A stretch of 64,000 nt of DNA. Origin: Atractiella rhizophila. Taxonomy: Eukaryota. Made by a program: the position numbers and the translations under genes. Below, in pieces: positions 1 to 38,670 of the stretch. The stretch's first letter is position 1. Each line of letters begins with the position of its first letter. The notes below the pieces were generated by a model. That model searched no databases. It was given only the letters and a program-made list of their open reading frames with translations, and had not been told where the DNA came from. The DNA lies in contig MU271185.1 of NCBI GenBank assembly GCA_021432655.1, positions 1 to 64,000 on the forward strand, written 5' to 3'.

Positions 1-153
1 AGTGAGAAAGGACAATAAAGCAATAATGGAGACGGTGCAGACCGGCGAAATGTATAAGGTTTGCTGAGCGGCGATTCGTGTGAGACAGGGGAAGGCGGCG
101 ATCAGCGAGAACGTGAGCAAAGCGGCGATGGGCAGGCGCGTGGTCCTATGGCA
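1..153 (-). mobile_element. Probable 5' (U3) end of a gypsy-type LTR whose remainder lies left of the window
   Basis: The mirror copy of 1-153 (~9472-9624) runs directly into 9625-9897, whose complement matches the 3' half of the solo LTR at 14063-14451 and is followed by a gag ORF. The boundary at 153 (TG on the minus strand) is a guess. Confidence 0.4.
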
Positions 154-203
154 TGGTAAAGTGGGTCACGTGACTTCAGATGGTGCATTTCGGTAATGCG
201 TAG

Positions 204-1555
204 GGGCAAGCCTGACACTTGCTTTGCAACTTGATGCTGCACAAGAAAAGCTTAACGACGTCCAAGACGAACATAAACGTGCAATTGACGAGCTTGATGA
301 ACTGCGTATTGAGATAGAGAACGCAAAGAAAAAAAGACGGACAGGCAGCATTACATCTACAATCGCTGATGCAGCTGATCATGTTGCCAAACGAGCTGGG
401 AAGGCAGTAATTTTTCGTTACTCTGTTTGGCCATCCAAACAAGCTCCTGAATTCCAACCCCGTACTATGTCAAGACCTCAATCTGGATTGGATGACGTCG
501 GAGGGAAGGCCAGCTCAGCAGATCAGAGCTTGTCGGAGAGCGAAAGAGAGATGGCTGAAGAAATGTCGAGAGAAGAGCGGAAGAAGCAGTTAGTTAAGAA
601 ACTTGCAAGGCCATACAAGCACAGTTCGTTTGTTACTTTTGTCATTCTAGAAATGGGGGAGTATGCAAGGGAGATTGAGAAGCCAACTATTCGAAAGAAT
701 GTGAGCAGTGGCCGATCCCAGAAGCCAGTTCTCACACAATAACAGGTTCTCAAGGGGATGAGAGAAGGCCGAAGCGATGCCATGAAGAAGATACGAGAAA
801 ACCTAACCGAAATTTATGACATTGACAATCCGGACAAGCTTAACCTGAAGAACCATCACGTTCGCAAAGAGATTCCCCAGCTTCAGGCACTTCTCAAGGA
901 CGACAGTTTTCTTTTCAATCCTAAATTGTACGATCCAAATGATAAAAAGCAGAAGGTGAAGGCCTACCTCATGCATCCGGGTCTTTTTAGAGTATGTTTT
1001 TAGTTTTTCTATAGCTTTTCTTGCATACTTAATTGCCTTATCAACTGGGTGTAGGCAGCCCGAGTGGTTTTTCACGGCCCAAACGTGATATATGATGCAA
1101 AGTCAAAGTATAAATCAAACACAGTTGGTCCTTTGACGAGCACACATGAAGGTAGCACACAGATCATCGCTTTTATTGCTGTGGTTGTAAGCATTATCTG
1201 TCTACCTCTCAATATGAGTTCAGGTTCATTTCCTTCTTAGTGCTGCTCTGCCTTAGGCCCCGACCCAGAGTTTGAAAGGGTTGGAAAGGTTCCTGACCCG
1301 TATGGGAAAACTGAACAGAGTCGAAAGAAAGGCTTCAATTATCGTGGATTCTATCTACGCACCGTTTGCAATCTTCGAGCAATGCAAGAAAAGCATGGAG
1401 AACGGTTCAAGCGCCTGTTAGGAGATTGGAACAAAGAGGTATTCCCATCAGAAAAGGAGGTACGAGAGGAAGACGAAGAATATCAAGATGATTTCCTGGA
1501 AGAGGGACTCGATGCGATCTCTCAGGAAGACGACAGAGGCTACGGTGAAGTATGA
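204..1555 (+). CDS. Spliced hypothetical protein, DUF6698-like, apparently lacking its 5' exon(s)
   Basis: Phase-0 GT-AG introns at 701-745, 992-1054 and 1187-1240 join four open exons to TGA at 1553-1555. The C-terminal part (GLFRAARVVFHGP...IAFIAVVCCSAL...FNYRGFYLR...LLGDWNKEVF, acidic tail) resembles basidiomycete DUF6698 proteins from memory. No ATG in frame at the 5' end. Confidence 0.6.
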
Positions 1556-1709: not shown

Positions 1710-4620
1710 ATAACTCAGCTGTATCCCAAACAACCACGGTTGTCGCCGACTCAGGCAGTATCCAGTGTCACGTGACTTTTTTCTCCTTTCTCGTGTGGAC
1801 TATCGTTAAGATCAAACCTGAGTTAGAGTTGCTTCAGCGGGTATTTGGCGTAGCAGCTGAAGCGTTGCACTAGATAGCTGCGACGTCTCTGTACCTAGCC
1901 TCATAGAAGGTTTTTTCAAGTCGCGAGCTTTCCGACAAGAATACTTCGGTTCGACATCCTCCTCTCATATAGCTTGAAGTTTTCCGTTAAGACAACGTCT
2001 TTGGTTGCGAAGCTCTCTCAACCATAGGAACCATAAAAGTGGTGCGGGTGCCTTTTGGACCAACATAGGTACTCGGTCTATCTGCGACGAGGTGACAACT
2101 TCTGTGACTCAACTTATGTTTCCTAGTATTAACCGTGTTTGGTTTTCGTGAAAGAGGCTCTTCACAAGTCGCAGCTAGAGGTTGAACAGCTCGGGATAAA
2201 CAGCTGTGTCAAATTACCGACATAAAGCTTTGTACCTGCGTAGACCATTAGGGTTCACGAGTAGCCAGCTTCTCTAGCCATGGGTGACACGTTCCTGAAG
2301 TTTACGGACACTGGGGAAAGTGAAGAAAATAGTCTATCAGCGTTTTTATTATGGGACTATCACAGCTCCTGCAGAAAAAGTGAGGTCTCTAGCTGTAAAC
2401 GTGAGTCTCGAGCCTTATGCACGACTAAATGTCAACGGACGTCTAAACTGCACTACCGACCCAGGCGGGTATCTCATACGAGGCTACGACAGTCGACATA
2501 CTGTCTTCATTCTTTCCCTAACCCAACGTCCCCGTAGCTGGTTTCCACGGTAAACCTTATACTGACTAGCATCGATAACAGTTAGGTTCAGTAACACCTT
2601 GTTAAAATACAATCTTTCTTATGTAGACGGAGTCAAGGACACGGAACCAGACCAGGTTCTTAACTGAAGCCTGTCCTTCCACGTTAAGTCGAAACCCCTC
2701 TAAGAGTTAGGGGAAGAGCTTCAAAGAGTTTTGGCATAGGTTCTTACTGGTATTTAGAGGTATTAGGTATCTCAGGTGTCAGGAAAGCAGGTGAAGGCTT
2801 CTAAGTCATCTTTTATTCAAGCGCTTACGTACGAACTTCACCTTACACAGCCAGTTTTGAGCAAGCCTAACCCCGCAATAGCTACCGCAACCGCTTGCTC
2901 CCGGACTTGACTTCCCATATCTTCAGCGACATCTGACGACGCAGGGTGACATGCGTCCCACCTCACCTCTAAGACTGCCACCCGGCTAATGCTTCCTCGT
3001 CCCCTACGAATCTTGCCTCGGTAGTGTTTTCGAACTAGTCCTACCAGTCGCTACTAGTAGTAACAGTCACAGTAGTCGGTTTTCCTCCGACGAGTGGCAC
3101 CCAAGTCAACACCCTATTGAACTTGAAGTATACCAGTCGCCGTCATAGACCGACTGGTAAGGCGTACCTTACGATTTGAACTGAACTAGTAGTTCACAGC
3201 GAAATGAACTGGAATACCAGTAAAGGTCGCAAAACGACTAGTAAATCAGACGGACCGACCGGTAACTAACAGTAGACGGGGCAAAACTTACTAGTAATAC
3301 AGCACGGACGACCGATTTACTATCCCTCACTAATCGGTAGAAACAAAAATTGCCCGACGAGACAACCAGTGGCTTTTATACATTATTTACAACTAAACGC
3401 GTAATCATAGTTACTATACTTTTTAAGTAGCCACTGGCAAAGAGAATGTAGAAGGGCTTAAAACTTTTGTTGTGAAACACTCGAGTTCTACGGGACTCGG
3501 ATTTGGTTGCATGACGGGTCGATGGCATCGGATTGAGAGAGTAGGTAGTAATTCGAATTTACGACCTCTCTTCCTTATACGCGTGGCCTTTGTGAGTCTG
3601 TAGTCCGCTGGATCCATCATGAAGAACTATACTTTGTCGAGCCAACCTCTCTTCTACCAGCCTCTCTTCTGCCACCTTTCAATGTACCTGTTTACCTGTT
3701 TAGACTCGGTCCCTTAACCCTAGTGACAGTGACCTTGAGCTTCATCACGGTTAGCCTGTCCTTCTAAGGGCGTAATATCCTGACATGCGACGGTCTTAGT
3801 ACTACAGCCACCAACCACGTAGCAACAACAATCTTTGGACTGATATAGATTATAGGCTGGTGTTTCTTAGTAGTCGTACAGGCTTTATGTACCTTCACTC
3901 CACCCCTCTCTCATTCCCGTTGTACGTGACTTTCGAACTGTAGTAACGACAGTGAGCGCTGTTGCGGGAGTCTTGGGTCAGCAGTTGATCATATGTATGA
4001 TACTTAGAGGTTAACAGTTACATGAGGTGCACCATCATCCTTGGCGAGAACTAGACGAGAAGAAGGAAGAGGAGGAGTACAGCTTCTGTTGTAACCTCAT
4101 TTTCACATAGAGTTTTAGAGCCGCAGAGATGGTAGTAGATGGCGTTCATGATCATCTTGAGTCTATTCAGTATTTGGTGGACTAATTGACGTATGTATGA
4201 CCCTATCGCACTTTCTTTTGTATTCACCGACAGCTGCAACCACCGCTCAGACTCAGCTGTCAAGTTAAAAGAAGTCGGTAGTAGTTGAAGTGTCTCTCGC
4301 GGCTAGTTTAGTTGGAGAGCTCAAAGCGTACGTGATTAGGTATGGACAAACACGAAGTGAACCGATATCGACGGATACAATCCTAAGCGATGGCTATGAA
4401 GTCAAATAAGTCGTGCGTAGGGCGCCATCCGTTACCGCTTTATTCACACAACCTCTACCGCTACAAATGTACTACTCATCGTACCTCTTCACACTACGAC
4501 CAAAAGACATCGGGTCTCTGTAACATTACACAAGGTATCGAAACGCAATGTCTCCCTACTCCGAATTAACATAACAAATAAGGAACTGCAATTCCTCGTC
4601 CTACAATACTTCATCAATAG
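1710..4620. other. Reversed-not-complemented block 1
   Basis: 3019-4236 is the letter-by-letter reverse of 10798-12014 (e.g. 4221 tattcaccgacagctg vs 10798 gtcgacagccacttat). 4237-4620 is repeated at 7533-7916. Confidence 0.93.
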
Positions 4621-4645
4621 NNNNNNNNNNNNNNNNNNNNNNNNN
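4621..4645. other. Assembly gap (25 N)
   Basis: Run of 25 n. Confidence 1.
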
Positions 4646-7507
4646 GTAGAGAACGTGTAATCGATGGAGTCGACGTTGACATGCTTCGATGAAGGAATTT
4701 TGTGGCCCCACTTGCGAATCACCTCCTGTACGTCCTTCTTTGAGAGTTCGTCCACTTGAACCGCCACAGGTACACTGTCATTAGGGGTGTGCACGTCATG
4801 TAAGGCGAAGGCACTTTCCTGTTGAATGGGTCTTACGTCCACCTCTACGTGCTTGGCCCCAATGCAACTGCCCAATTTCAAACTCTCAGGAGACACGGTG
4901 CTCCCTTCAACGTGCGTACTAGGAGCTAGACGGAGGATATCTCTGTATTTCGAGTCAATGACGTAGTCGTCATTGAGGATACGCTTATTTGGGATTCTTT
5001 TTCGTGTGGAACGGCGAGGAGGTGGAGCTGTCTGAGTTGAGGTCGATGGATGGAAGGAAGGTGGCTCAGGTGGAGTGCTGGGACGTCTATGTGCGAAAGT
5101 TGGCTCCGTTGATTTGTCAGGGTAATGCTGATCATTTAGAGGAACATCACTTTCCTGAATTGCGGGTCTTACGTCCACCCTTTCGTGTGAAGCGCCCTCG
5201 CAACTGCCCGTTCCCAAATTATCTCTCTCCTCAAGATTACTCGCCTCAAAGGAGCTTGGAATGGATGGAGATGGAGCTATTGTTTCGATGGAGTTGGGAG
5301 CGGAAGGTGCAACTCGCACCCACGAATCGGGAAGTCCAGCATCAGAAGGTGCATCTTGAGGGAACTCATCTATATTCTTTTCTGACCAGAAAGAGTAGTC
5401 GTCCAGACGATCTGACCCAGTTCTCCCTTCAAAGTAGTTTTCAGCGAATATCACATGCCGTGCTCGAATTAGACGACATTTCATTGGGTCCCAGCAACGA
5501 TGCGATTTAAACATCACGTCAGGCCCAAGATAAATGCACCGGACAGCCTTATTTTGCCACTTCCTCCTTCGCTCTTCCGGTATGAGCGCCCATGCCGTAC
5601 AGCCAAATGTGCGTAGATAGCCAACTGAGGGTTGGATTCCTTCGAGAGTTGTGAGTGGTATCTTTCCCTGTAGCGAAGAATGAGGAGTTCGATTGTAGAC
5701 GTGGCCGGCAAAGTAGAGAGCTTCTGCCCAGAATGTTAGAGGAAGCCTTGCATGGTGGAGCATGGATTTTGCGAGGTTGCGGAGGGTGCGATGGATGCGC
5801 TCTGCAATCCCATTTTCTTGATGACAGTAAGGAGTTGTGGTTTTCCATTCTATATTGTTGACTTCGAACCAGGATCGTAACAGACTGCTCACGAATTCTC
5901 CTCCTCCATCGACTTTCCATCTCTGCACTCTTCGTTGGGTTTTTGCATGGAGGATCGATCTGAATCGCTCAAATGAGGGAAGAACAGTTGCCTTTGACTT
6001 GTCGGGAATGAATTCCTGGTGCACCACTCTCGATCCAACATCGACGTGTACAATTGAATACCAAGCACCACCTAACGAAGAGACTTGCACAGGACCAGTT
6101 AAATCGGACACTACAGACTCGCCCGGAAGAGTAGGCGGGAGCTCGACGCTTTGCTTTGAAGGAAACGGACCACGATGCATCTTTCCCATCACACATGGCT
6201 CACAAACTTCCTCAAAATCCTTTGCTTTCGCCTCTTTCACTTCCAAACCTCCAACCAGGGATTTCGAGATCAGATCTTTGATCTTCTCCATCCCGATATG
6301 CGCGAGTCTGTTGTGCCACACCTTCAGGTCGACAGCCTTTGAGGCAGTATCGATGTGAGTACTCGCCTTCGCCTTCCGTGCATCTCCCTTCAGCAGAAAC
6401 AGTCCCCCTTTGTCCTCCGCCATTCCTACCAGCCCTCCCTTCCGATTAAAAATCTTGCATGCTCCATCTTCGAAAACCAGTTCGAAACGGTCGCGAGGTG
6501 GAAGAGAGAGACTGACGAGTTTGGAGACGCTTATGAGGGGGCTGGTGAGCGAAGGCAGGTGAAGAACGTTTTGAAGTACGATGTTTGAGAGAGGTTGTCC
6601 ATTTTTGTTGTGGGTAGTGTATTCCGCAGAGCCTTTAGTCGTAATAGATATGCTTCTACCATCTGCCACCTCGATAGATCCATTGTGTGGCTGACGATTG
6701 AAGATGTAGTCGAGGGGAAAGACATGAGAGGTGCAGCCCGAGTCGATGCAGGCGGCGGTTGCCAGTTTGTCAAGAGATAGATTCGCCTTGCTAACTGACA
6801 CCTCTTCAACCAGTCGTACTTGATCTCGGATGGCAAGTGAACGTGTTGACTGGGCACTCGATGCAAAATCGGAGCTGAAATTGGAGACATTGAGGACAAG
6901 GTTCGCTTGGTCAGGAATGGAGGAGGTATCGATGGATGGTGACGCTACTTCTTTCCTGTTGTCTTTTCGCTTTGGATTGATCGTTCTGTCCTTGAATCGA
7001 TATCCTGAGGGTGCAAGGACTCGATTTGCTTCTAGCTCCCAGCAGCGATCAGGGGCATGGGAGCGTAGGTTGCAATGAGGACACGAAGGGAAGCGATTCA
7101 ATCCACTCTTTCTCCCCTTTTCTCCGACACTCCCACTGTTTCCACTCCCTCTCTGAGGTGCTATCGAACGCGAAACGAGGGCCTGTTCCTGTGCCTTCTG
7201 CACTTCACTGAGACCCTCTTCCAGCATAATCGTATTGATGGTGTTAGAGATCCATTCTGGGGTGAAGTCGATGAGAGTGGCTTGTGAGGATTTCGTTGCC
7301 TGCAGTGCCGAAAAATAGGGCTTCATCTTGTCGCGAAGTGAGTCTGGAACTGTCGCTTGGAGGTGTGCAGAGAAAACAATCGATTTCCAAGTCCCAGTAG
7401 TGAGCTTGTCTTCACCAACGTATTTGATGAAGTCTGTGAGATTCTTTTCGAGGACCGCCATGTGTTCTGTCCAGTGTTGAGGAGTTGTCCCACTGAAATG
7501 AGTGCGC
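4646..7507 (-). mobile_element. Ty1/copia retrotransposon internal fragment (gag zinc knuckle, protease, GAG-pre-integrase, integrase); RT/RNase H and LTRs absent
   Basis: Open frame with CPHCNLRSHAPDRC knuckle, CIDSGCTSH protease, WHNRLAH...CEPC, SDLTGP / VDGGGEF / ENGIAER integrase and YLRTFGC. Integrase directly after protease is the copia order. Both ends are cut by N runs. Confidence 0.95.
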
Positions 7508-7532
7508 NNNNNNNNNNNNNNNNNNNNNNNNN
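7508..7532. other. Assembly gap (25 N)
   Basis: Run of 25 n. Confidence 1.
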
Positions 7533-10500
7533 CAACCACCGCTCAGACTCAGCTGTCAAGTTAAAAGAAGTCGGTAGTAGTTGAAGTGTCTCTCGCGGCT
7601 AGTTTAGTTGGAGAGCTCAAAGCGTACGTGATTAGGTATGGACAAACACGAAGTGAACCGATATCGACGGATACAATCCTAAGCGATGGCTATGAAGTCA
7701 AATAAGTCGTGCGTAGGGCGCCATCCGTTACCGCTTTATTCACACAACCTCTACCGCTACAAATGTACTACTCATCGTACCTCTTCACACTACGACCAAA
7801 AGACATCGGGTCTCTGTAACATTACACAAGGTATCGAAACGCAATGTCTCCCTACTCCGAATTAACATAACAAATAAGGAACTGCAATTCCTCGTCCTAC
7901 AATACTTCATCAATAGTACTATGGTGTAACGATTACGCTATTGCAAAAGTCTACAAAGCCTACGTGTACTTATACACGAACATAACTTACAACTTCATTT
8001 ACCATTGCAAACATATGTACGAATCCGATATATGTAACTCAAAGGCTCCATTAATGTTAAGGATCGGAAAAGTATGAAGTGGCATCGGAGACAGCAGAAG
8101 GACTCTCTCGCGTAGCTCAGGGAGAAGGTCCTTTAGTAGAACTATAAGAAGCAGAAGGAGAGCATGGAGGAAAAGACTACCCTTATGGAGAAACAAGGTT
8201 AGAGGATTGTCCGCGAACTTGGCAAGAGGTACGAAAAGAACGTAACGAGCTTCTAACGTTTGCCACGCATCTATCTTAGGTGCTATTAACTTCGGAAAGA
8301 AAGCTGAGACAAGTCAAAAGGGTATGCCCAGTCCTTGGAAAGGTTGGGAAAGTTTGAGACCCAACCCCGGGTTCCGTCTCGCCGTGATTCTTCCTTTACT
8401 TGGACTTGAGTATAACTCTCCATCTCTCTATTACGAATGTTGCTGTCGTTATTTTCGCTACTCGACACACGATCGAAGTACACACGAACAGTTTCCTGGT
8501 TGACACAAACTAAATATGAAACTGAAACGTAGTATATAGTGCAAACCCGGCACTTTTTGGTGAGCCCGACGGATGTGGGTCAACTATTCCGTTAATTCAT
8601 TCGTTCTTTTCGATATCTTTTGATTTTTGTATGAGATTTTTCTGGGCCTACGTACTCCATCCGGAAGTGGAAGACGAAAAATAGTAAACCTAGCATGTTA
8701 AATCCTAACTTTTCTTTTGACAGCAGGAACTCTTCACGGACTTCGACCCCTTAGAGAAACGCTTGCACTACCAAGAAGTCCAATTCGAACAGGCCTAACA
8801 GTTACAGTATTTAAAGCCAATCCAAAAGAGCATAGAAGAAGTACCGTAGCGAAGCCGGAAGAGAGTAGGGGAACTCTTGGACAATAACACACTCTTGACC
8901 GAAGACCCTAGCCGGTGACGAGTGTAAGAAAGCTTATCAACCGAAGAGTTAGAGGGAACGTATGAGGGGGTAAAGATCTTACTGTTTTCATTGTTTGCTT
9001 GACACGAACATACCGGAGCGTTCAAAGAATTGATTGACGAAGAAGGCGAGAAGAGAGCTGTAAAGAAGTCGGTAGAGAGAAAGCGAGAGGCTGTTCGAGA
9101 CTAGACGACTCGACCGGAAGGGAGGCTGCAGTAGGTTAGGTCTAACTCCAGAACTGTATCATGCCCCAACCTTAAGTCCTCGAACAAACCTACCGGTTTG
9201 TCTCATTGCTTTTTAATGACGGAAGGGTCGAGCAAACCGTTGTACTAGTCGACGTAGTCGCTAACATCTACATTACGACGGACAGGCAGAAAAAAAGAAA
9301 CGCAAGGGATAGAGTTATGCGTCAAGTAGTTCGAGCAGTTAACGTGCAAATACAAGCAGAACCTGCAGCAATTCGAAAAGAACACGTCGTAGTTCAACGT
9401 TTCGTTCACAGTCCGAACGGGGATGCGTAATGGCTTTACGTGGTAGACTTCAGTGCACTGGGTGAAATGGTACGGTATCCTGGTGCGCGGACGGGTAGCG
9501 GCGAAACGAGTGCAAGAGCGACTAGCGGCGGAAGGGGACAGAGTGTGCTTAGCGGCGAGTCGTTTGGAATATGTAAAGCGGCCAGACGTGGCAGAGGTAA
9601 TAACGAAATAACAGGAAAGAGTGAACATGACGAGTCATACAGAATAAAGGCTCAAAAGGAAAATAACGAAAGGACTAGATCGATAGAATGTACAAAGTTC
9701 TTTGAATACTATGTCAAATACCGTCACGAAAATGTATACATATATATGTAGCTCTACATCACCACCACTGGAGTCTCATAAGAGAATCCAAATGGAGGTG
9801 ATGTCCAATCAGAAGAGTACGGTATAATAAGGGAATCCAAATGGAGGTGATGTCTGCGTAGCGGATAGCCGCTGGCGTGTATCACAATCGGGATTATCTT
9901 CTTATGAGAGAGGAATTTTAAAACTTTGGTTTGCATTTTTTACAGCCTCTAAACCCCTTTATACCTTTGCGCGCTTGGCGGCTGCTCGCTTCTTGCGTAG
10001 GTTGTGAATCTTTCCTACAAGGTTTGAGATGTGGAGTGTTGACTTTTCGTTAAGTTTTTTGAGCTTGTTCTGGAGTATAGTTCGAAGTTGGTTGTTTTAC
10101 GTGTTTGGAGGGTCTTACGCTTGCTTTAACGCGTTGACTCCAGGCTGCAGGTTTTGTGTTTGCTAGCTTAAAACGTTAATAACCTGAGGTCTGACGGGGG
10201 AGGATCTCTGTCACCTTGGTGGAGAGGAAAGAATAGCGCTTGTCTGGGTTATGGAGTTTGAATAAGAGGAGGCAGATATAGGGTCTGACGGGTTCATCGT
10301 GGCATACGTCCATAGTTCGAGCGAGGTGGAAGTTAGAAGTTTCCTCGAGGATTGTGTCGAGGCTGTAAAAATGCGCTTTAAATGCAGATGTGGAGATGGC
10401 AAGGTCCGGTTAAGGGCTGACTTTTTAGCTTTTTAGGATAAATGGGAAAGAATGTACTTTCTTCCTCTACGCCTTTTTAAGCGGCGACCCTAAAACGCGG

Positions 10501-10797
10501 CTGAACAGCTTTTACTCCTTGTTTAACGCACCCTTGTTAAAAACAGCCTCAAGTTTCGCGCAAAGACGTTCTGTCTGGTATTCGAGTAACGTGTCTGTTT
10601 TTATAGAAGGGAGGTCGTTTTCCCCTTGGATCTTTGGATGTAGTAGTTCAAGCTTCTTAACCGTTTAGTTCGACTGAAACTACTACTTCGGGAATGGAAA
10701 AAGAAGTTTGCTCCTGAGTTAGGATGGGATGTAGAGTTTCATTGGGTTCCCCTCAAGGGTTTTAGCGACCTTCCTGACCTTTCTTTTTAGAGCCGCT
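7533..10797. other. Reversed-not-complemented block 2
   Basis: 7917-9624 is the letter-by-letter reverse of 1-1709 (the window starts agtgagaaaggacaataaagc; 9604-9624 reads cgaaataacaggaaagagtga). 7533-7916 duplicates 4237-4620 (384 bp). Confidence 0.95.
9941..10797. mobile_element. Ty3/gypsy gag ORF legible only as the base-wise complement read left to right
   Basis: Complement translates MSEIWGNMETREPPTSEERIQHLERMF...IKLAPPSIFKGAPNTAPTFLREIYVY...QFPTEKSK, then after one extra base in the run at 10430-10434, ILFTLSYMKEGDAEKF...WEQFLSEFKARF...SLQQKGNLETYIIKFEELANQADFDDEALTFFFKRGLNP. This is a retrotransposon gag pattern. Confidence 0.88.
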
Positions 10798-12703
10798 GTC
10801 GACAGCCACTTATGTTTTCTTTCACGCTATCCCAGTATGTATGCAGTTAATCAGGTGGTTTATGACTTATCTGAGTTCTACTAGTACTTGCGGTAGATGA
10901 TGGTAGAGACGCCGAGATTTTGAGATACACTTTTACTCCAATGTTGTCTTCGACATGAGGAGGAGAAGGAAGAAGAGCAGATCAAGAGCGGTTCCTACTA
11001 CCACGTGGAGTACATTGACAATTGGAGATTCATAGTATGTATACTAGTTGACGACTGGGTTCTGAGGGCGTTGTGGCGAGTGACAGTAATGATGTCAGGC
11101 TTTCAGTGCATGTTGCCCTTACTCTCTCCCCACCTCACTTCCATGTATTTCGGACATGCTGATGATTCTTTGTGGTCGGATATTAGATATAGTCAGGTTT
11201 CTAACAACAACGATGCACCAACCACCGACATCATGATTCTGGCAGCGTACAGTCCTATAATGCGGGAATCTTCCTGTCCGATTGGCACTACTTCGAGTTC
11301 CAGTGACAGTGATCCCAATTCCCTGGCTCAGATTTGTCCATTTGTCCATGTAACTTCCACCGTCTTCTCTCCGACCATCTTCTCTCCAACCGAGCTGTTT
11401 CATATCAAGAAGTACTACCTAGGTCGCCTGATGTCTGAGTGTTTCCGGTGCGCATATTCCTTCTCTCCAGCATTTAAGCTTAATGACGGATGAGAGAGTT
11501 AGGCTACGGTAGCTGGGCAGTACGTTGGTTTAGGCTCAGGGCATCTTGAGCTCACAAAGTGTTGTTTTCAAAATTCGGGAAGATGTAAGAGAAACGGTCA
11601 CCGATGAATTTTTCATATCATTGATACTAATGCGCAAATCAACATTTATTACATATTTTCGGTGACCAACAGAGCAGCCCGTTAAAAACAAAGATGGCTA
11701 ATCACTCCCTATCATTTAGCCAGCAGGCACGACATAATGATCATTCAAAACGGGGCAGATGACAATCAATGGCCAGCCAGGCAGACTAAATGATCAGCAA
11801 AACGCTGGAAATGACCATAAGGTCAAGTAAAGCGACACTTGATGATCAAGTCAAGTTTAGCATTCCATGCGGAATGGTCAGCCAGATACTGCCGCTGACC
11901 ATATGAAGTTCAAGTTATCCCACAACTGAACCCACGGTGAGCAGCCCCCTTTTGGCTGATGACACTGACAATGATGATCATCGCTGACCATCCTGATCAA
12001 GCTTTTGTGATGGCCTAATCAAAGGATGGATGCAGGATCCGCGCAAAGGAGTCTGTGATTCCAACATCCGCGGATGGGAAGATCGCGGATTTCAGTGTCA
12101 AGGTAGCTATGGTCTACGGTCACGAAACTGCCAGCATAGTCGTTGCTGACACGTCGCCACCTCTCCACTCTCATGGATCTCATCTCTCATCCACTTGCTT
12201 AAGAATTTTGTTGTTGTTGTTGTTGTGATCATATTTCAGAGCTTTCAGACTATAGTCAACATAGCTCTACATTTGGGGATATCACATGTGAGAAAATGAA
12301 GATGTTAACAGTCCAACAAAGTAATCTTGGAGGTTGAATCAGAACCGAGAATATTGCGACGAGAAAGTGTAAAGGATATGAAAAAAAGCCCCCGGTAATC
12401 CCCGTTAAAATGTATGTTGGCGTGGAACGAAAGAAGCGGATGGGGGGTTACTTAAATCGCGATGGCTATTTGGTTGGGTTGTACGAGATGGGGATTGACG
12501 ATGTATTTGGTTCCTCCTTTGCTATAACCTCATGGTATATGTGTCATGGTAGATGGTTGTGTTCCTAGGAGCAATACCTTAGATGGGTCAGTGATGAGAT
12601 TGGACGTAACTCGTTTTTAGTCTTCCCACTCCTCCCTGAACTCTTCTTCCTCCCCTCTACTTTCCGCCATTTGCTTTCGCTTCTCCTTTCTTCTGTCCAA
12701 GAC

Positions 12704-15700
12704 TCATTGTGCCCTTTTGATCCATAGGTTGAATTTCCCATTCTTCCGGATGAATTCCCACACTGCTTGCGTTGCCTCCGGTTCGCTTAAAAGGTCCTTC
12801 AGGGATCGGAATCGAATGTCTTTCTTCCTGAGCCTGGCCCTGAGCTTCTTCCTTTCGTCTTCGTGTTCCTCGCATTCGAAAAATAGGTGGGTGACCGTGT
12901 CGTTCATTCCACAGAAGTCGCAGTATGGCTCGTCCATGACCCCGATGCGGTGGAGCTATTGGTTGTTGGAGATGTGTCCGCTGCGGAGTTGTACGAAGAT
13001 GGATGCTTGAGCTCGTGGCATCTCCTTAAGCATTTTGAAGGTCTGGTCCGAGGAGAGGTGACGAGATAGCGAGTGGTGGTGTTTGCCGGCAGAGAGTGTC
13101 GGGAGTTCGCTGGGTAGGAACCGACTGGTCGTTATTATGGCCTTCAGTGTGGATGGGCTTTTCGCAATGACGATGTGGCCTGTTGCTGATTCGGGATCCG
13201 TCGCGCTGTTGGCCGCCATGTCCGCTAGCTCGTTGCCTTTGACATTGTTGTGGCCTGGGATCCAATGGAGAGAGATGGAGCTGGTGGGGAAGAGCCTTCG
13301 GAATCTGTTTGCCAGCTTGTTGATGTTGAGGATCAAACCAACTCCAGGTTTGCATTTCGGTTTTCTTCGATAAACTTCTGACTGCGGCCTGAGAATCTGT
13401 GAAAATGCGTATAGACGAGACGGTTCCTCTTGAGTTATTGAGCGCAATCCCCAGTGTCAAGGCTCGATCTATCCCCATTAGTTCCGCTTCGAAGATGGTG
13501 TTATGGTCTTGGTTGCTGATCCTGTATCCCACTTTGTTCTCCGGTTCCGTCATCGCTAGCCCGCATGCCACTCCATCCTCTGTCCTTGAGCCGTCCGTGA
13601 AGATCCAAATTTCATCCTCTTCTTGCTTTAGCTTCTTGAAATCTTGCATCGCGTCTTCCTTTGAGCCCGCTATGAAGATGTCGAAAGATGGTGAGTGGCC
13701 AGGGTGGGTGGTGAAAGAAGGGATGATTTCGAGGTCCTTGGGAAAGTTGAGTTTGTCGGAGAGGAGGAGTGAATTGAGAGGAGAGAGGTGTTTCTTGGGT
13801 TGAGCAGAGTTGAGTATATCTTTTGCGATCCTGCCTGCTGGGTTGGAGTCCGGGAGGGAGAGCAGTCTGATCATTGCTCGAGTAATCGTTTTATCGAGGC
13901 GAGCCACCACTGGCGGAAGGTTGGAGTCATAGGAGAGAGCCGTTGTAGGGGTGGTGCGAAAGGCTCTGAGCATGAGTCTTTGAGCGTATCGTAGAACGAT
14001 TTCCAGCCGTGCTGCGCCGCCACTCTTCTTTCCAAGATGGTGCCAAATGATTGCGTTGTTATTGTCAGGTTTGCATCTTACGCAAATCGGCGCCCGTTCG
14101 CCGGATTGCGTCTCCCGTCGCCTATTTGCACGCCCGTTCGCCTGTTCGCCCATTTGCACCTACATCACCACTTAGCCCAATTGTGCCTATCCTCCTCTTA
14201 TTAACTCCGCGTAATCCCACTGTCACTTCCCTTTTAGTTCTCTTACATGTTTCATCTGCTCTCCTCTACGCTTTGTGGCAGTGTTATTCCGCTTGTATAT
14301 ATAGATCAGTGAGTAGTGGAGGTGACCTTAGAGTATTCTCTTAGGTTTATCTCCACTACAGGTTAGTCTTCATGTCATATCATGCTCTTAGGTTTATCTC
14401 CACTACAGACGCATCGCCTATCGGCGACCGCACATAGTGTCAGCCCTAACAGTTATCTTATCATTGCACAGATTGCAGCCTCATCCAGGCGCCGATAGTG
14501 TAGAAGTGGGATGCCTTTCGTCGTATTGGAGAGGGTCGGCAGAAGGGAGAGCGATGACTTCGCCTTCTTCTCAATCACTTTTAGGCGGGAATTGAAGCTT
14601 AACCTGGAATCAAGGAGCATTCCTAGGTGTTTCATTTCCAGCGACTGCATAATGGTTGTAGATCCAACACGAATAGTGAGGTTGCCGAATCTGGACTTCA
14701 TCTTTTTATGTTTACCATAAAGGACGAAATCCGTCTTGGCCTCCTCAAAAATAGCGCCATGTTTCTCACGCCAAGCCATTGCCTTGTCGAGCATCACCTC
14801 AAGGTTGGAAATGGCCCGTTCTGGGTTCGTCTCACGGGCATTCATGTGGACGTCGTCTACGAACCCGCATTTGAGAGAGTCCCCTTCCAGAGCCTGTATG
14901 TCAAGGAGGTCAGCATTGTAGAACAAGTATAAGATGGGAGATAAAGGAGATCCTTGAGCCAGTCCAATTCCTAGGACGAAAGGCTTTGACGTGTATCCGT
15001 CGAAGTTGTAAGTCGTTTGTCTGTCTCGCAGCCATGCCTCAATGATGTCGATCTCGCTTTCTGGGACTGATCTCTTCCTGAGGTCGTCGATTAGACGAGC
15101 GTGAACTACTGTGGGGAAGGCCCCCTTTACGTCCAGTGAAACCGAGGCTGTTACCTCTCCCTTCCTCCAGCCCTCTCTTATGAACTCTGTGACTGTTAGT
15201 AGGGCGTCATTGATGGATCTACCTGGCCTAGCTCCGAAGTGATGGGAGGGGAGCGCTCCATTGCTCTCTGCATGGAAGGTGAGTCTGGCTGAAATAACGC
15301 CGTCGAAAACCTTCGCAACGCAGTCTAGGAGGGCAATCGGCCTGTAGGCCGAAGGAGGGAGTAGTCGGCACGTTTAGGTTTCCGTAGGATGACCGTTGTG
15401 AAGTGCTTCCAGGACCATGGGTAGTATCCAACAATGTAGCAGGCGGAGAAGATGTTGAAGAGATGGTGGCATATCTCCAACCTAACCTCCTTTATCATCT
15501 TGTTGGAGATGCCCGATAGTCCTGGCGCAGAACTCGTTTTGATTCTATCTATAGCTTTGTCAATCTCTTCAATCTTTAGGGGGCGGGCTGGAGCTGGAGA
15601 AGGGGGGTGGGGATGTGGGATGTCAGAAAGGTCACATCGGCGCGCTGAGGGATTGAAGGAGGAATGGAATAGGGAGGCTTTTTCCCCTGGGGAGGATACG

Positions 15701-17059
15701 GTGTCTTCAGGGCTGTCAGGGTTGGTGAGAGGTGGGATGTCATGACACCGTTCCTCCCTTTTACCATATTTGTGAGCTGTCCAAATGGAGTTCTTGTCCA
15801 GGTCGGCGAGGAAATCTTCGAAGTGCTGGGACTTCGCTTGTCTGATGTCTGCATGGAATTGGTTAGCTGCTCCCCACCAGGTCAAGCGAGCTTCCTCCGT
15901 TGATTCCTCGCTGCCTTTCTTTTTCGCTTTGAGGAACCTGTTACGCAGCTTGTTGACCTTTTTCCGCTTTTCTGACAAGCTCCTCCGTCCACCATCGCTT
16001 CGTAGGTTGACTCTTGGAAACTCTGGGGATCAGTTTCATGGCGTCAACCAGCGCTGCGGTGAGGTGTTCGACCGCTGCATCAATGTTTTCTTTCGTCGCT
16101 AGTTCGTCCACGTCCCCTGGGATACCTGCCAACAGATCAGATTTTTGAAGGTGTTCTCTTACCAACTCCCAGTTAGCGGTTTGGAGGTTGTAGTGGCGAC
16201 ATGGATTGAATGCTGGGGGAAGGAGCGAAAGCTTGGTCACTAGCTTGTAGTGGTCCGAGTTGTGACTGTTTCCCCCTCGGTCAGTGACGCAGTATGTTAT
16301 GAACTCGTTGGCGATTTCGTTAGTGAAGATAAGATCAATGGCTGTTTCGTGTCCCAGGGCACTTATGAATGTTGGGACACCTCGTTGAGAGCATAGGGTG
16401 AGACCTATTTCCTCCATGTTTTCTAGGAGATAGTCTGCGTTGCCATCCGTGCGTGTGTACCCTTCTGGGTTCCACTCGGTGTGGTGCAAGTTAAAATCCC
16501 CCCCTACATATATCAGGTCCTCTTCTTTTAATGTTCCTCTTTCTCTGGCATCATTTAAAAGTGACATAACATTGTTAATGGTCTGTCTGCCCCCTGCCGC
16601 ATTGTATACGTTTACGACGAAGAAGCTTTCCCCCCCTTTAAGTGAAATCACCACCGCTGAAACATCAGGATATTTACTGGGAACTTCCAAAAATGAATCT
16701 CCCGAAAATGTATTAAGATTGATAAGAATAACAGAGCGGGAGACTTCTGATCTAGAGTCTGAAGTTTTCGCTTTTTTTGAAGCAATTGTTTTATAACCGG
16801 GATAACGAATAAGTGTCCCGCTGTCAGGAAGAACTGTGGGAGGCTCTTGAATTAAAATGATGTCTGCTAGACGGTCTTCAGAATTTAGAAATGAGTGCGT
16901 GATAGTTCCTCTTTTATGGTGATTTTGCTGAATGATCGTTAGAATTCTTTTAGAGGCGGATGAGTTTGGAACCATTGCTGGAGTGTGTGGTGGGACCAAA
17001 CCGCTCTCTGAACTGGTGTCGTTGACTGCATCAGGCCATGTGAAGATTTCTTCTATCAT
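12704..17059 (-). pseudogene. LINE ORF2 (APE endonuclease - RT - RNase H - C-terminal zinc finger), frameshifted and split by a solo LTR
   Basis: IIQQN, DIILIQEP, GGDFNLHH, NSDH (APE); SAPGLSGI, GFVDD (RT); IFTDGS, FEAEL, IFTDSQAA, WIPGH...GNELAD (RNase H); CDFCGMNDTVTHLFFEC. Spread over several frames. Confidence 0.92.
14063..14451 (+). mobile_element. Solo LTR (389 bp), gypsy family, inserted in LINE ORF2
   Basis: TGTCAGG...CCTAACA termini, 5-bp TSD GTTAT (14058-14062 and 14452-14456), TATA-like run near 14296. The 3' half matches the complement of ~9690-9897, which precedes the gag. Confidence 0.9.
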
Positions 17060-18905
17060 TCTACAACCTCATTGTTGCTCAATACTGGCAACTCAGTTGT
17101 TTCACTTCCCGTCTCAAGCTTGGGCGTCTGTTCTCTTCCATCATTTCCCTCCTCTTTATCCTCTTGATGAATGGGTGCCCCTTCCGGTTCGTCATCCCAT
17201 TCATCCCTTTCAAAGTATTCTCCTAGTTCTCGTTCGACTAATCTCGCTTTAGCTCTGTCAGCTCTCTTCCTAAGGCAATTGTCTCCTCCATAGGCCCCAT
17301 GTGCACCATGTCCTTTCTCGCCACAGTAAGCGCAGCGTAACGCTACCCTCACATGTGAGCAGAGTGTACCTATCGGGGTCTTATCTCCACATGGAGATGG
17401 GTCTAATCCTTCTTGCATGAAGCAGGTTAGTTGCTTTGTGCAAGATCTTGTATCGTGCTCTTCTGCGCATGCTCCGCAAACAGGTCTGTCTTTTCTATGA
17501 CAGCTTCTACCAAAATGTCCTAGTTGGAAGCAATTAAAGCATTGTGGCAAGGCTCGAATCGATTTTTCGGCGTTGAGGCGTCGACCATTGAAGAACACCC
17601 CTCTTTCAATGGCTTCATCCGCGACTTTTCCGTTTTTGAAGAAAATCAACAAGGATGAGAAGCTCTTGAGAGCGTTGCTTTCTACATTCTTGTCTTTGAA
17701 AATTTTATTCGAGACCCATTCTAGCTTTAGAACATCCATTCTGTCCAGTTGTTGCGGTCTAAGAGTAGTCTCTTGACCTGACTCTTGTCCCTTATATTCC
17801 AATCGGTCTGGACTCTGTGAATCACCACAACGTCCGTTGGAACATTTCGGGTGAAGCCCTTGAGTTCACCACAAGCATCTACCCACTCAGTGAAGGTTTG
17901 CGAAGCCCTGTCGCAATCGATGGTATCGTTGAACCATAGAGCCAACCCCCCTCCAGGTAGTTTGTCCACTGCAGAAGCAGTGACGATACTATTCTCCTGT
18001 TCTTCCGGGGTGTTGTCCCTAATCGGTTCGCTGAAGACCAATCTCTTGACTAGGGCCTCGTTAACTTGAGCAAGCAAATCCGCTTCGGATTTATCAACTT
18101 GGTGGGCTTCGGAGTCATTGGGAGGGAAAAGTGTCAGCTTTCTAGAGCGATTTCGCCTCTGGCGAGCTTTCTTAGAAGCTGCCCTGGAACGGATGGGAGC
18201 GTTCGTCGGTGCTAGGACTGAGGGGAGAAGGCTAAGCGGAGGGAAATCATTTGCATCTGGCACCCAGGTGGGTCGGATGGTGTTCGTATCATGAACACAG
18301 ACTCCCTCTGAGAGTTTGCTTTCAATCCCTTCTAGTCTGTCTAGGATCAAATCGATTGACTTGTTCGCAATGGCTTGATTACGAGTAATGCAACACATTT
18401 TGCTGAGAGGGTCTAGCTTCAGCATATGAATGGCAGTCTTAAAAAGAGTGCTAATGTTGTCTACTACGGTTTGATCCGTTTTGAATTCTCCTCTGGAATT
18501 TTTGAGCTTGTTTTTCCCGCACATATTGCGAAATTCTAAAAAGGCAAAGTCCAGAAGCTGGACTGGGTCATTCTGGGTCTCTTCATCAATGCCCAGAATG
18601 TCTACAACTCTTGGAAAGGAAGGGGTGCCATGGATGGAAAGAGGTGGAATAGACTCTCGGTTCGAAGCACTCATGTCAAGGAGGTGCGTACTGGTGACCC
18701 TTCCTCCTCTGTCGCTTTCGTCGATAGCCCTCTGGCTATTTCTCATTATTCCTCCTTTGTTGGCACTCATGGAGTGCTGATTTTGGAGAGCGGTGGGGAG
18801 GCGAGTAGAAGTTGGAGCAAATTCTACTCGCAGTTCCCCTCCTTTCCCAGGTCCAGAGTTGGCCTTTCCGCCCTCTTGTGAGGGGTTGGGGCCTTTCTGG
18901 GGCAT
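17056..18905 (-). pseudogene. LINE ORF1 (gag-like, zinc knuckles), one frameshift near 17770
   Basis: CFNCFQLGHFGRSC, CGACAEEHDTRSC, CAYCGEKGH. Colinear with the unbroken frame at 36465-38222. Confidence 0.9.
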
Positions 18906-20695
18906 GGTAGTCGGTGGGTTGTGTTGGAGAGTTGGTTTTGTTGGAATTGTTCGATGGGGTTTCGTCGTTTCTCCCTCACTTGCTTAAGAAAATGAACATA
19001 GTTTGACCAAAAGTCACATGCCTCAAGAAGATAGAGGTATCGTGCTTGAGCCCAGAGAGAGACTCTTAGAAAATGTCATGACTGCAAGGCAGGAAGGTAT
19101 GACCTATGCCCTTCCATCAAACGTTCGTTGTTACCCCGCCTTTCGTGAGTTTTCCTCCTTCTGTGGCACATGTTCGGGTGCTAACTGCATTGGATGGCAG
19201 GACAAAACTCTCCAACACTTCTACAAGCTCGGTGACAACCGTACGACCCTCCTCCTTGCCTACTCCTCTCCGATCGCTGACCTATCATGTCTGTGCTGCA
19301 AGCGCCTACAAATTTCAGAATGTGCATTCTATTCCTTATGCTCCATGGAATATCTTGTATAACGAAACCGATTGGACAGAAAGTTTCCCTAGAAGAAGAA
19401 GAAATGGTGGAACCACTCTCTGTGGCCTCCAAAATGTGGCACATATCAATGGATGAAAGCTGGGTTGAACGTTGTCATTTGCCTGTCAGTCTCCCTCCAT
19501 CTACTCCTCATCTACCTGTAGAATAAAATAATAATGACGGTGGTTCAAGAGCAGGCTCGCTTGCACGAACAAGTATGAGGACGGGAGACTTCATGGCTCC
19601 TAAACGTGCGTCCAACCCTAATGCCTCTTATGCATGACTTGTCTCAGGTTTCTGTTTCTTTTTGCGCGTGATGGTTTGCGTTTGTGGTTTAGCGGAGGGA
19701 GTGCAGAGCATAGTGTACTCGAGACGGTCGTGGGGATCATGAAGGAGGAGTTCAAGACTGCAGACAGGGAATTGGATGATATCGACATGACCATAGACTG
19801 CATGGGGCTGAGGTTCGTTTCTCCTTCCTGCACTTTCTGATATTGGTGTACTAAAATACTGATGCAATTAATGAAGACAGGCGTGCGTCGAGACCGCCCC
19901 CTTTCTCGTCAAGAACGGCGGAACGTACATCCCAGTCGGGTAACCAGTCCAAACTCCCATCACCATCCTCATGAAGGAGAGGCTCCCTTTACCTCACGCA
20001 TTTATGAAGCTTCTTGGTTAGTTATTGAGTTGCACGATACTTAAGGTCCGGGAGAGTTGTGCAAGTGATTGGTTTGGTTGCTGGAGTTCTTGTCGACTTG
20101 AAGTCGCAGCACTATAAGTTCAAAGATACAATTTGTCCCTCGAAGACGATGTAAGCTCGTCCCCAAGGGTTGAAGGAATAGTCCCATTGTTATACCACAT
20201 CTTCGGTCTTCAATGGCACCGCTTTCTGTTCTGTTAAGTAGGACATCGTTGAATGCATGAGTCGTCGCCAGCTGTAAGAACGACTCAAGTGACACTCAAA
20301 GGGTGATCGGCTGCACTACAGTGTAGCACATTTGGACGGAACTTGATGCCTTAGGCGCTTTTGCTGGGAATCAGCAGAATCATTTGCATGGCAGAAGACA
20401 TCCGTAATACACACAGAGAGCGTCCTCCTCACAAACCCAATCTCGTCATGCCCTGAAGCTTCCGAAATAGTCATCAACACCAGTTCTACTCCTTCTCATC
20501 CAACGTCATCATTGCCCGTATCCCTCATTTCCTGATTCCCCAAGAACCAGCAAATAAACACTGGGAAACCGACTCACCCCTGCAACAGGAAATAGTTATG
20601 ACCTATACCACACTGTGTTCTAATAGTGCGCATGGAAAGACTTGGTGTGGATGGGGTTCCAAGATTGCTCATACGAATCGAGCATGAGGTGTCAT

Positions 20696-37000: not shown

Positions 37001-38670
37001 CTCTTTCAATGGCGTCGTCCGCGACTTTGCCGTCTTTGAAGAATATCAGCAAGGATAAGAAGCTTTTCAGAGCGCTGCTTCCTACATCCTTGTCCTTGAA
37101 TACTTTCTTCGAGACCCATTCTAACTTCAGAATGTCTGTCTCCGTCCAATTATTTCGCTCAAGAAGTAACTTCTTGACATGATTCTCATCCTTTATGTTC
37201 CAGTCTGTTGGGACTCTGTGAATCACCACCACGTCCGTTGGAACATTCCGAATGTATCCCTTAAGTTCACCGCATGCGTCAAGCCACTCTGTAATGGTTT
37301 CCGTAGCTCTGTTACAGTCGACGGCGTCGTTGAACCATAGAGTTAGTCCCCCACCAGGTAGTTTGTCGACTGCTGACGCAGCAACAATAATGTTATCCTG
37401 TTCTTCGGGGGTCTCATCTCTTGTTGGTTCTCTGAACACCATTCTTTTGACTAGAGCATTGTTCACCTGAGTAAGCAAGTCCGCTTCGGGTTTATCAACA
37501 TAATGGGCATTCCAATCAGGTGGAGGGAAAAGTGTCAGCTTTTTGAAGTGATTTCTCCTCTGGCGAGCTTTCTTAGAAGCGGCCTTTGAAGGGATAGGAG
37601 CATTTTTGATGTCTAGAAGTGATGGAAGAAGGCTAAGTGGAGGGAAATCCTTTGCATCCGGGACCCAAGCGGGTCGGATGTCGTTCCTTTCACGAACGTG
37701 GATTCCCTCTGCAAGTTTGCTTTCAATCCCATCTAGTCTGTCTAGAATCAATTCGATTGACTTGTTTGTGATAACTTGATTGCGAAAGATGCGACACATT
37801 TCACTAAGAGGGTCTACCTTGAGGAGAGAGAGACATGTTTTTAGAAGGGTACTGATATTGTCTACTACGGTTTGATCCGTTTTAAATTCCCCTCTAGCAT
37901 TCCTAAGTTTGTTGTTCCTGCACATAGCACGAAATTCTGTGAACGTAAAGTCCAAAAGTTGGACCGGATCGTTTTGGGTCTCTTCATCAATGCCCAAAAC
38001 GTCCACAACTCTTGGAAAGAAAGGGGTGGCATGGATGGAATGAGATGGGGCAGACTCCCAGTTCGAACCACTCTTATCAACGACGTACGTACTATTGGCC
38101 CTTTCTCCTCCATCGCTTTCATCGACAGCCCTCTGGCTATTCCTCATGGTTCCTCCTTTGTTAGCACCTGCGGAGGAGAGCTGGCTTTGGGGATCGGGGG
38201 GCGCATGTAGAAGTTGGTGCAAATTCTACTCACAGTTCCCCTCCTTTCCCAGTTCCAGAAGTGGCCTTTCCTCCCTCTTGCGAAGGGTTGGGGCCTTTCT
38301 GGGGCATGGTGGTGGGTGGATTGTGTTGGAGAGTCGGTTTTGATGCAGGGTGAAATATAGGATATGGTCCACCTGCTCGTTTTGGTTTTGGTTGACTAAC
38401 CACTGATGTCACTTGACCAGAAGCTCAAGGTTGCAGATGGGGATTGGAGGCATTCACCTGACTTAGTGTTGGATTTTGCAGTCTAGTTTCGTGCCACTCA
38501 GTGGCAAAGTCCTTAAGTTTTCTGGAATGTTCTACTACTTTCTAGTTGCCACTGCTGTAAGCTATATAAACACATAGAATTCCATTTCCTGGTGCTCATG
38601 CGTTTGCAAGAGCTCAGCCAAACGTAACCAAGTCGTACTTAGCTCCGCTCCTCAGCCCGTTGATTTCCAA
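34093..38670 (-). mobile_element. Tad1-like LINE, copy 2 (ORF1, APE, RT; 3' part missing)
   Basis: ORF1 ~36465-38412 with a premature stop at ~38230, APE 35689-36468, RT ~34093-35652 (YRPIALL, LAQGSPLSP, GFVDD). Homology to copy 1 stops at ~34093; the 5' boundary is approximate. Confidence 0.9.

What the first reader, a model, noticed from the sequence alone, without database searches (positions are those of the whole stretch)
9625..10797. A gypsy LTR plus gag hidden in a 'seventh frame'
Seen: none of the six frames explains this stretch, but its plain complement gives the 3' half of an LTR (...cttaggtttacctccactacagacgcatcgcctatcggcgaccgcacatagtg, nearly identical to 14387-14439). That is followed by ATG at 9941 and ~285 codons of gag-like protein with one homopolymer frameshift. 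Inference: the block is real genomic sequence in the wrong polarity, the 14063 solo LTR belongs to a gypsy family, and this predicts what lies left of base 1. The homopolymer slip suggests an unpolished long-read consensus.
Basis: partly seen in the sequence, partly recalled or inferred. Interest (0 to 1): 0.72.

Follow-up and report, generated by a model that had tools for sequence, protein, structure and literature searches.

The report
Gypsy element in backwards-written assembly block
The stretch is the front end of an ordinary fungal jumping gene (a gypsy-type retrotransposon), unreadable only because about 3.3 kb beside an assembly gap was written in the wrong direction, which is a data fault and not biology.

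Summary
Observation confirmed and extended. 9625-10797 lies in a larger block, 7533-10797, written reversed without being complemented. A second such block is 1710-4620. Each abuts a 25-N gap. Read right-to-left, both join their native flanks seamlessly at exactly one cut point each and align over 3311 bp at 99.4%.

The complement holds a whole 490-bp 5' LTR (9408-9897), whose first 217 bp also lie in normal polarity at 217→1. A 10-nt self-primer-type site follows, then a gag cut off at the flip point. A gag profile hit 1 of 2749 ORFs (E 1.2e-13). Public contigs carry this LTR variant and its leader in normal polarity.

Most likely one ~5.8-kb patch sequence extended both gap flanks with half of the reverse-complement step missing. 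The program is not identified. The element looks like a Tf1/sushi-type self-priming Ty3/gypsy, but pol could not be tested. The homopolymer site of the frame change is plausible but not pinned.

The scan noted the same fault three times on other DNA of this genome. I found no paper on it in four searches. Low biological interest, some quality-control value.

The parts
7533..10797 (.). Right-hand wrong-polarity block (3265 bp), reversed without complement; read right-to-left it is A + B' + C and joins 10798 seamlessly
   Evidence: 1 of 16 cut points tested gives a seamless join: 10797
1710..4620 (.). Left-hand wrong-polarity block (2911 bp); read right-to-left it is C + D' + E and joins 1709 seamlessly
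   Evidence: 1 of 22 cut points tested: 1709
9408..9897 (.). Complete 5' LTR, 490 bp, read as plain complement; starts TG, ends TA instead of CA
1..217 (-). Normal-polarity copy of the first 217 bp of the same LTR, running off the window at base 1
9740..9783 (.). TATA-like box (9740) and, 34 nt on, a 10-nt stretch (9774-9783) complementary to the site behind the LTR: candidate transcription start and self-primer
   Evidence: start site inferred, not measured
9900..9909 (.). Candidate primer-binding site, 2 nt behind the LTR end; no TGG tRNA-type start
   Evidence: 31 of 20000 shuffles give such a match; the helix is in the minimum-energy fold; loose ends
9784..9854 (.). 22-nt direct repeat pair with a 49-nt GT..AG intron-like segment ending in the second copy (47 nt in the solo LTR)
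   Evidence: lead from earlier notes; splicing not shown
9941..10797 (.). gag (complement): unmatched N-terminal part, capsid-like part about 10420-10740, one frame change within about 10343-10436, cut off at the flip point before any zinc knuckle or pol
14063..14451 (+). Solo LTR, 389 bp, TG..CA, 5-bp target-site duplication GTTAT (14058-14062, 14452-14456), inserted in a LINE between RT and RNase H
   Evidence: (contigs join 14062 to 14461 in X1 and X4)
7910..9624 (.). Mirror copy B' of 1-1715 (99.2%)
3019..4236 (.). Mirror copy D' of 10798-12014 (99.5%)
4237..4620 (.). Segment C (384 bp), identical to 7533-7916; exactly the sequence between the two flip points, present only in wrong polarity
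4621..4645 (.). 25-N gap
7508..7532 (.). 25-N gap
4646..7507 (-). Normal-polarity contig between the gaps: internal part of a Ty1/copia element (protease-like, GAG-pre-integrase, integrase)

Best explanation
Assembly fault hiding an ordinary element. SHOWN: the left contig ends at 1709 and the right contig starts at 10798, and each is extended into its gap by sequence in reversed-not-complemented polarity. Read correctly, the true order is A-B-C-D, then E. INFERRED: both extensions were cut from one patch sequence of about 5.8 kb (A B' C D' E) spanning both flanks. Its unaligned tail was added to the left contig and its unaligned head to the right contig. One half of the reverse-complement step was skipped, so no overlap was recognised and the gaps stayed open at 25 N. 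A long-read flank-extension gap filler such as PBJelly fits (about 0.6; not shown). Biology of A, SHOWN: 5' LTR, leader and gag of a Ty3/gypsy-type element on the minus strand, pointing left out of the window. INFERRED (about 0.7): it primes reverse transcription as Tf1 does. The first ~10 nt of the transcript, starting ~30 nt behind TATA, pair with the site behind the LTR and are cut free as the primer. This copy looks decayed or carries consensus errors (LTR ends TA; one frame change).
For: Mirror matches of 1716 bp at 99.2% and 1218 bp at 99.5%. Polarity score is negative for all six segments of the two blocks (-8 to -34), positive for B, copia, D and F (+30 to +84), and positive in 49 of 49 held-out 1-kb windows over 15001-64000. 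Single seamless cut points and a 3311-bp collinear alignment with 17 mismatches and 2 gaps. C copies identical at 384 of 384. X1 contig record 1 is laid from 10798 with 132 further letters on its left that do not fit the window. Loose ends behind 14452 (14 contigs X1, 15 X2) and before 14313 (17 contigs X2): the 15 and 27 letters tested match the complement at 9899 and 9730 exactly. tblastn of 12 frames against 123 loci gave 3 hits at E<=0.05, all from one complement frame, to gag ORFs of L014, L041 and L069 (E 1e-11, 2e-10, 3e-4). All three ORFs pass Pfam's cut-off for Retrotrans_gag, and L014 and L069 have pol in RT-RNaseH-integrase order. A profile from 15 such proteins hit 1 of 2749 ORFs, E 1.2e-13. 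Flank extension, overfilled gaps and the 25-N gap definition are described in PMC3504050 (passages).
Against: No genome is held, so DNA left of base 1 was not read, and I cannot tell whether the fault is in the public record or arose in later handling. The 132 letters of X1 record 1 and the ~2060 unlaid letters of X2 record 13 were not displayed. Record 13 differs from the solo LTR by 17 letters and 7 gap letters versus 18 and 4 for the block, so it is a relative and not proven to be this copy. X1 and X2 are one sample and may be the source of the assembly. A second gag profile (103 proteins of the L003 family) did not hit, and 4 viral loci gave no tblastn hit below E 0.3. The complement protein was not scanned against Pfam itself; the gag call rests on homology to Pfam-positive proteins. 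The N-terminal ~130 residues matched nothing. The passages seen in PMC3504050 describe no polarity fault and do not say that overfilled gaps are left at 25 N (that is recalled).
Confidence: 0.93

Rival explanations
1. Same polarity fault, but made by another step (scaffold or AGP building, haplotype patching, format conversion, or preparation of this window) and not by a long-read gap filler.
For: Any routine that complements without reversing a minus-strand piece gives the same text (inference). Substitutions outnumber indels 17 to 2 between mirror copies, which is not the indel-rich profile recalled for raw long reads. No paper links PBJelly to such a fault (0 papers).
Against: The blocks begin exactly at contig-like ends, end at gaps of exactly 25 N, and each overshoots into the opposite flank, the pattern of flank extension and overfilling in PMC3504050.
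Confidence: 0.35
2. The mirror copies come from the second haplotype or a paralogous locus, so A need not lie left of base 1 in this scaffold.
For: X1 and X2 (one sample) differ from each other at several sites in D, and 11383 shows a half-depth indel. After D the two readings diverge into E and F. D' carries the X1 allele at 11947.
Against: The LTR's 5' 217 bp are already in the native contig and run off at base 1, so at least the rest of the LTR should follow there. B and B' are identical over the LTR part (first difference at 318).
Confidence: 0.15
3. The solo LTR at 14063 belongs to a different (for example copia) family that only shares an LTR module with the gag-bearing element.
For: Earlier notes (unchecked) report a repeat/intron module shared by gypsy and copia LTRs in this genome. 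The U3 parts differ in length and align poorly.
Against: Identity covers both termini, the TATA region, R and U5. Contigs laid on the solo LTR run on into the same leader that precedes this gag.
Confidence: 0.08
4. The cell really holds kilobase mirror-polarity DNA.
For: Only the record itself.
Against: No copying mechanism gives reversed-not-complemented DNA (established knowledge: synthesis is antiparallel). The blocks stop at N gaps and flip at single bases. Contigs show the sequence in normal polarity.
Confidence: 0.005

Closest known systems
Tf1/sushi group of Ty3/gypsy chromoviruses (Tf1 and Tf2 of S. pombe, Tj1 of S. japonicus, Tcn1 of Cryptococcus neoformans)
   Same: LTR with TG..CA ends and a 5-bp target duplication (solo copy); the site behind the 5' LTR is complementary to a stretch ~30 nt behind TATA and not to a tRNA 3' end; gag follows. 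Tf1 uses 11 bases (PMC7175516, passages); proposed for Tj1 (PMC4600332, passages) and Tcn1-like elements (PMC6317226, passages).
   Different: The match here is 10 nt and starts 2 nt behind the LTR. The start site is not measured, pol and chromodomain are not in the window, and the LTR carries a repeat pair with an intron-like segment. Self-priming is also predicted for some copia lineages, so it is not diagnostic alone.
Gag ORFs of L014, L041 and L069 (Pfam PF03732 Retrotrans_gag; PF19259 Ty3_capsid above cut-off in L041 only)
   Same: 30-39% identity over 49-110 residues in the capsid part.
   Different: Distant relatives only; no close relative was fetched.
Overfilled gaps from flank extension (PBJelly, PMC3504050)
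   Same: Both flanks are extended, no overlap is recognised, the added sequence exceeds the true gap (384 bp), and the gaps are 25 N.
   Different: The passages seen describe no reversed-not-complemented output; attribution to this program is an inference.

Membership tests
Ty3/gypsy LTR retrotransposon | LTR with TG..CA ends and 4-6 bp target-site duplication | tested here: met
   Solo LTR 14063-14451 TG..CA with GTTAT on both sides. The block copy starts TG but ends TA; its duplication cannot be checked without the 3' end.
Ty3/gypsy LTR retrotransposon | Gag of Retrotrans_gag/Ty3 capsid type behind the 5' LTR | tested here: met
   tblastn E 1e-11; profile E 1.2e-13, 1 of 2749 ORFs, and the window's copia ORF was not hit; reference proteins Pfam-positive. 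One other gag profile did not hit.
Ty3/gypsy LTR retrotransposon | pol in PR-RT-RH-INT order | not testable with these tools
   The block ends inside gag at 10797; no genome is held; no locus with this LTR was found.
Ty3/gypsy LTR retrotransposon | RT phylogeny within Ty3/gypsy | not testable with these tools
   No RT of this element was available.
Tf1/sushi self-priming group | Primer site complementary to the 5' end of the element's own RNA | tested here: inconclusive
   10-nt perfect complement 34 nt behind TATA in both LTR copies, 31 of 20000 shuffles, helix present in the minimum-energy fold; RNA 5' end not measured.
Tf1/sushi self-priming group | No tRNA-type primer site | tested here: inconclusive
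   No TGG start behind the LTR. No tRNA set was available (0 tRNA genes in the window), so half-tRNA priming was not excluded.
Chromovirus | Chromodomain at the integrase C-terminus, or chromovirus RT clade | not testable with these tools
   Integrase is absent from the window.
PBJelly-type overfilled gap | Both flanks extended beyond the true gap with no recognised overlap, beside 25-N gaps | tested here: met
   2911 and 3265 bp added for a 384-bp interval.
PBJelly-type overfilled gap | The record was processed with that program | not tested

The most novel reading that the evidence does not exclude
The fault is systematic: a gap-filling step writes kilobase extensions in complement-only polarity in many public long-read-patched assemblies. 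This would hide real genes and repeats from six-frame annotation and from read polishing, duplicate flanks invisibly, and be undescribed in print. Here it is shown for two blocks in one window; three earlier unchecked notes report it elsewhere in this same genome.
Probability: 0.4. Interest if true: 0.45.

Novelty: not a real feature. Interest (0 to 1): 0.15.

Why it matters
Biologically little: a truncated gypsy-type 5' LTR and gag in a repeat-rich fungal genome is ordinary. For data quality it matters. 6176 of 64000 bases here are unreadable in six frames, the 384-bp stretch C (just upstream of a spliced gene at 10885-11635) exists only in the wrong polarity, and such blocks look like unique orphan DNA to annotation, repeat masking and sequence models. 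A simple test finds them: BLAST the plain complement of an assembly against itself, or score k-mer polarity beside gaps.

Tried and rejected
Contig cover: 0 depth in all 13 bins over 7533-10782 in 4 of 4 runs, with depth from 10783 on in X1, X2 and X4. This fits the reading, but a part without cover is not counted as evidence. X3 held a share of only 0.06 and is not used.

Whole genome: not held.

Exact search for a 24-base LTR stretch: 0 matches in metagenome contigs and 0 in viral contigs. A long RT pattern gave 0 in viral contigs. A shorter one gave 4 loci, none with a tblastn hit below E 0.3.

The L003 gag family (135 hits; the best 103 used) gave no profile hit. For the working profile, 15 of the 22 proteins were used: those with PF03732. 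The 7 without it were dropped.

Pinning the frame change by scanning an X break: scores were flat at 47-52 bits over 10343-10436.

The X4 loose end before 10885 was sought in all four readings as a possible exon in C: no match within 3 mismatches. E read right-to-left matched nothing in the window. Pieces of gene B gave only sub-threshold Pfam hits (DUF6532 E 0.0075, DUF6698 E 0.031).

Literature on the fault: (listings and abstract starts only) showed no paper describing it. PMC6240028 (passages) only confirms 25 as the default minimum gap. PMC5445492 (passages) describes a different hairpin behind copia LTRs, which does not fit here. No supplements were read; a note on such a fault could lie there.

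Earlier findings near the place and by LTR sequence: none; scan-wide word searches: none.

Full report
Observation. Over 9625-10797 the six ordinary frames have no stop-free run longer than 79 codons, while two complement frames have 192 and 166. Complement 9833-9885 matches 14387-14439 at 52 of 53 bases, and the wider match is 87.5% over 184 bp. An ATG at 9941 opens a reading of 285.7 codons to 10797 with one change of frame.

Extent of the fault. BLAST of the window's plain complement against the window found two long mirror matches: 7910-9624 is the reverse of 1-1715 (99.2%) and 3019-4236 is the reverse of 10798-12014 (99.5%). In addition, 4237-4620 equals 7533-7916. A strand-symmetric Markov model trained on 15501-64000 scored all six segments within 1716-4620 and 7533-10797 as reversed (-8 to -34), and 1-1715, 4646-7507, 10798-12014 and 12015-14062 as normal (+30 to +84). 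All 49 held-out 1-kb windows of the remainder scored positive. The short solo LTR scored -2.7, so the score is weak on LTR sequence. Both blocks abut a gap of exactly 25 N. Read right-to-left, the left block joins seamlessly at 1 of 22 cut points (1709) and the right block at 1 of 16 (10797). The two corrected readings align over 3311 bp with 17 mismatches and 2 gaps. The true order is A-B-C-D, where C (384 bp) is exactly the interval between the flip points.

Independent sequence. Contigs of four public runs were laid on 7533-15032 (X1 and X2 are one sample and may be the assembly's source). X1 record 1 is laid from 10798 and carries 132 more letters on its left that do not fit the window. 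Loose ends behind 14452 (14 contigs in X1, 15 in X2) begin with the leader that follows the LTR in the complement, and a loose end before 14313 (17 contigs in X2) has the block's LTR variant. The 15 and 27 letters tested match the complement at 9899 and 9730 exactly; in the other three readings the 15-mer's best matches have 3 mismatches and the 27-mer has none within 3. X2 record 13 (2239 letters) starts inside the LTR and runs about 2 kb on. Its difference profile (17 letters, 7 gap letters) is close to, but not the same as, the block's (18 and 4), and its other letters were not shown. X4 shows spliced joints at 11107-11187 (GC..AG) and 11446-11502 (GT..AG), which confirms that D is in normal polarity.

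The element. The LTR is complete. In complement it starts TGTCAGG at 9408 and ends at 9897 (490 bp). Its first 217 bp also lie in normal polarity on the minus strand at 217→1, where they run off the window. This supports the prediction for the DNA left of base 1, although that DNA was not seen. The solo LTR is 14063-14451 (389 bp, TG..CA, GTTAT duplication), inserted in a LINE between RT and RNase H; contigs of other LINE copies join across it. The two LTRs share both ends, the TATA region, R and U5 but differ in U3, so they are related subfamilies.

Gag test. Loci with a gypsy-type RT motif (recalled) were fetched. tblastn of all 12 frames of the block against 123 loci gave 3 hits at E<=0.05, all from one complement frame (L014 1e-11, L041 2e-10, L069 3e-4). 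These ORFs pass the Pfam cut-off for Retrotrans_gag, and L014 and L069 have pol in RT-RNaseH-integrase order. A profile from 15 PF03732-bearing relatives (15 of 22) hit 1 of 2749 ORFs from the four readings of the whole window: complement 10299-10868, E 1.2e-13; the next best was 0.77. A profile of another gag family (103 proteins) did not hit. The N-terminal ~130 residues matched nothing. The frame change is bounded to about 10343-10436; two five-base runs lie inside, but the site is not pinned. Gag stops at the flip point, so the truncation is probably the end of the patch and not of the element (inference).

How it likely works. Two bases behind the LTR is a 10-nt stretch (9900-9909) that is the perfect reverse complement of 9774-9783, 34 nt behind a TATA-like box. 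The same 10-mer sits at the same distance in the solo LTR. 31 of 20000 shuffles gave such a match, and the helix is in the minimum-energy fold. [quoted passage not shown] The start site is inferred, not measured; I put self-priming at about 0.7.

How the fault likely arose (inference). C is identical in both blocks, while B' and D' differ from the native contigs by 0.5-0.8%. So both blocks probably come from one patch A B' C D' E of about 5.8 kb. Complementing a minus-strand patch without reversing it gives exactly this text. Flank extension, overfilled gaps and the 25-N gap definition are described for PBJelly (PMC3504050, passages), but those passages mention no polarity fault, and the record's method is unknown here. 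On the 'unpolished consensus' idea: both mirror-copy indels are in homopolymers, and three clustered D' substitutions (11075-11098) are absent from the long X1 and X2 contigs over that stretch, which fits errors. But 11947 is a real allele, and substitutions dominate.

Comparison and novelty. The element works like a Tf1/sushi-type Ty3/gypsy. Membership of Ty3/gypsy is met for LTR and gag; pol order, RT clade and chromodomain could not be tested. The 'seventh frame' is not a feature of the organism. Earlier notes of this scan (unchecked) report the same fault on other pieces of this genome (e1-7574415, e1-7574419, e1-7588955) and describe the host as a root-associated basidiomycete, one naming Atractiella rhizophila; I did not check that. 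Four literature searches (listings only) showed no paper on the fault; subscription papers and supplements were not seen.

Verdict. Observation confirmed, interpretation supported with corrections, interest 0.15.

Noticed in passing
window 14340-14408 and complement 9784-9854: Both LTRs carry a 22-nt repeat, then a GT..AG segment of 47 or 49 nt that ends in a second copy of the repeat, starting just behind the candidate self-primer. X1 and X2 each have one contig skipping 49 bases at 14343-14393. Earlier notes propose a self-regenerating intron; splicing was not shown here.
   Followed up: partly
window 4646-7507: Internal part of a copia element sits alone between the two gaps, while the corrected B-C-D reading has no room for it: a heterozygous insertion or a misplaced contig.
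   Followed up: no
window 12014/12015 and 1710-3018: After D the native text continues into a repeat (12014-12205 matches 44735-44926 at 96.9%), while the patch continues into E, which matches nothing else in the window. E may be the allele without the insertion.
   Followed up: partly
window 218-1552: Intron-containing gene with weak, sub-threshold DUF6532 and DUF6698 hits; the LTR end at 217 abuts its first long open frame, so the element may have inserted into or just before it.
   Followed up: partly
window 12206-18976: Full-length LINE on the minus strand (gag-like zinc knuckle, endonuclease, RT, RNase H) with a (CAA)n tail and a ~14-bp flanking duplication, nested in another repeat; a second copy at about 34094-38345 (77%).
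   Followed up: partly
window 10885-11635: Spliced gene of unknown family with a GC..AG and a GT..AG intron (X4); a 1-base indel at 11383 at about half depth in X1 and X2 suggests heterozygosity.
   Followed up: no
window 20923-48668: Four related repeats each carrying a 274-595 aa ORF with a weak F-box-like hit, 79-92% alike; element type not determined.
   Followed up: no
L014:5608-6129 and L041:4586-5134: Both gypsy loci have an antisense cysteine-containing ORF behind the integrase, like the antisense accessory genes in earlier notes.
   Followed up: no
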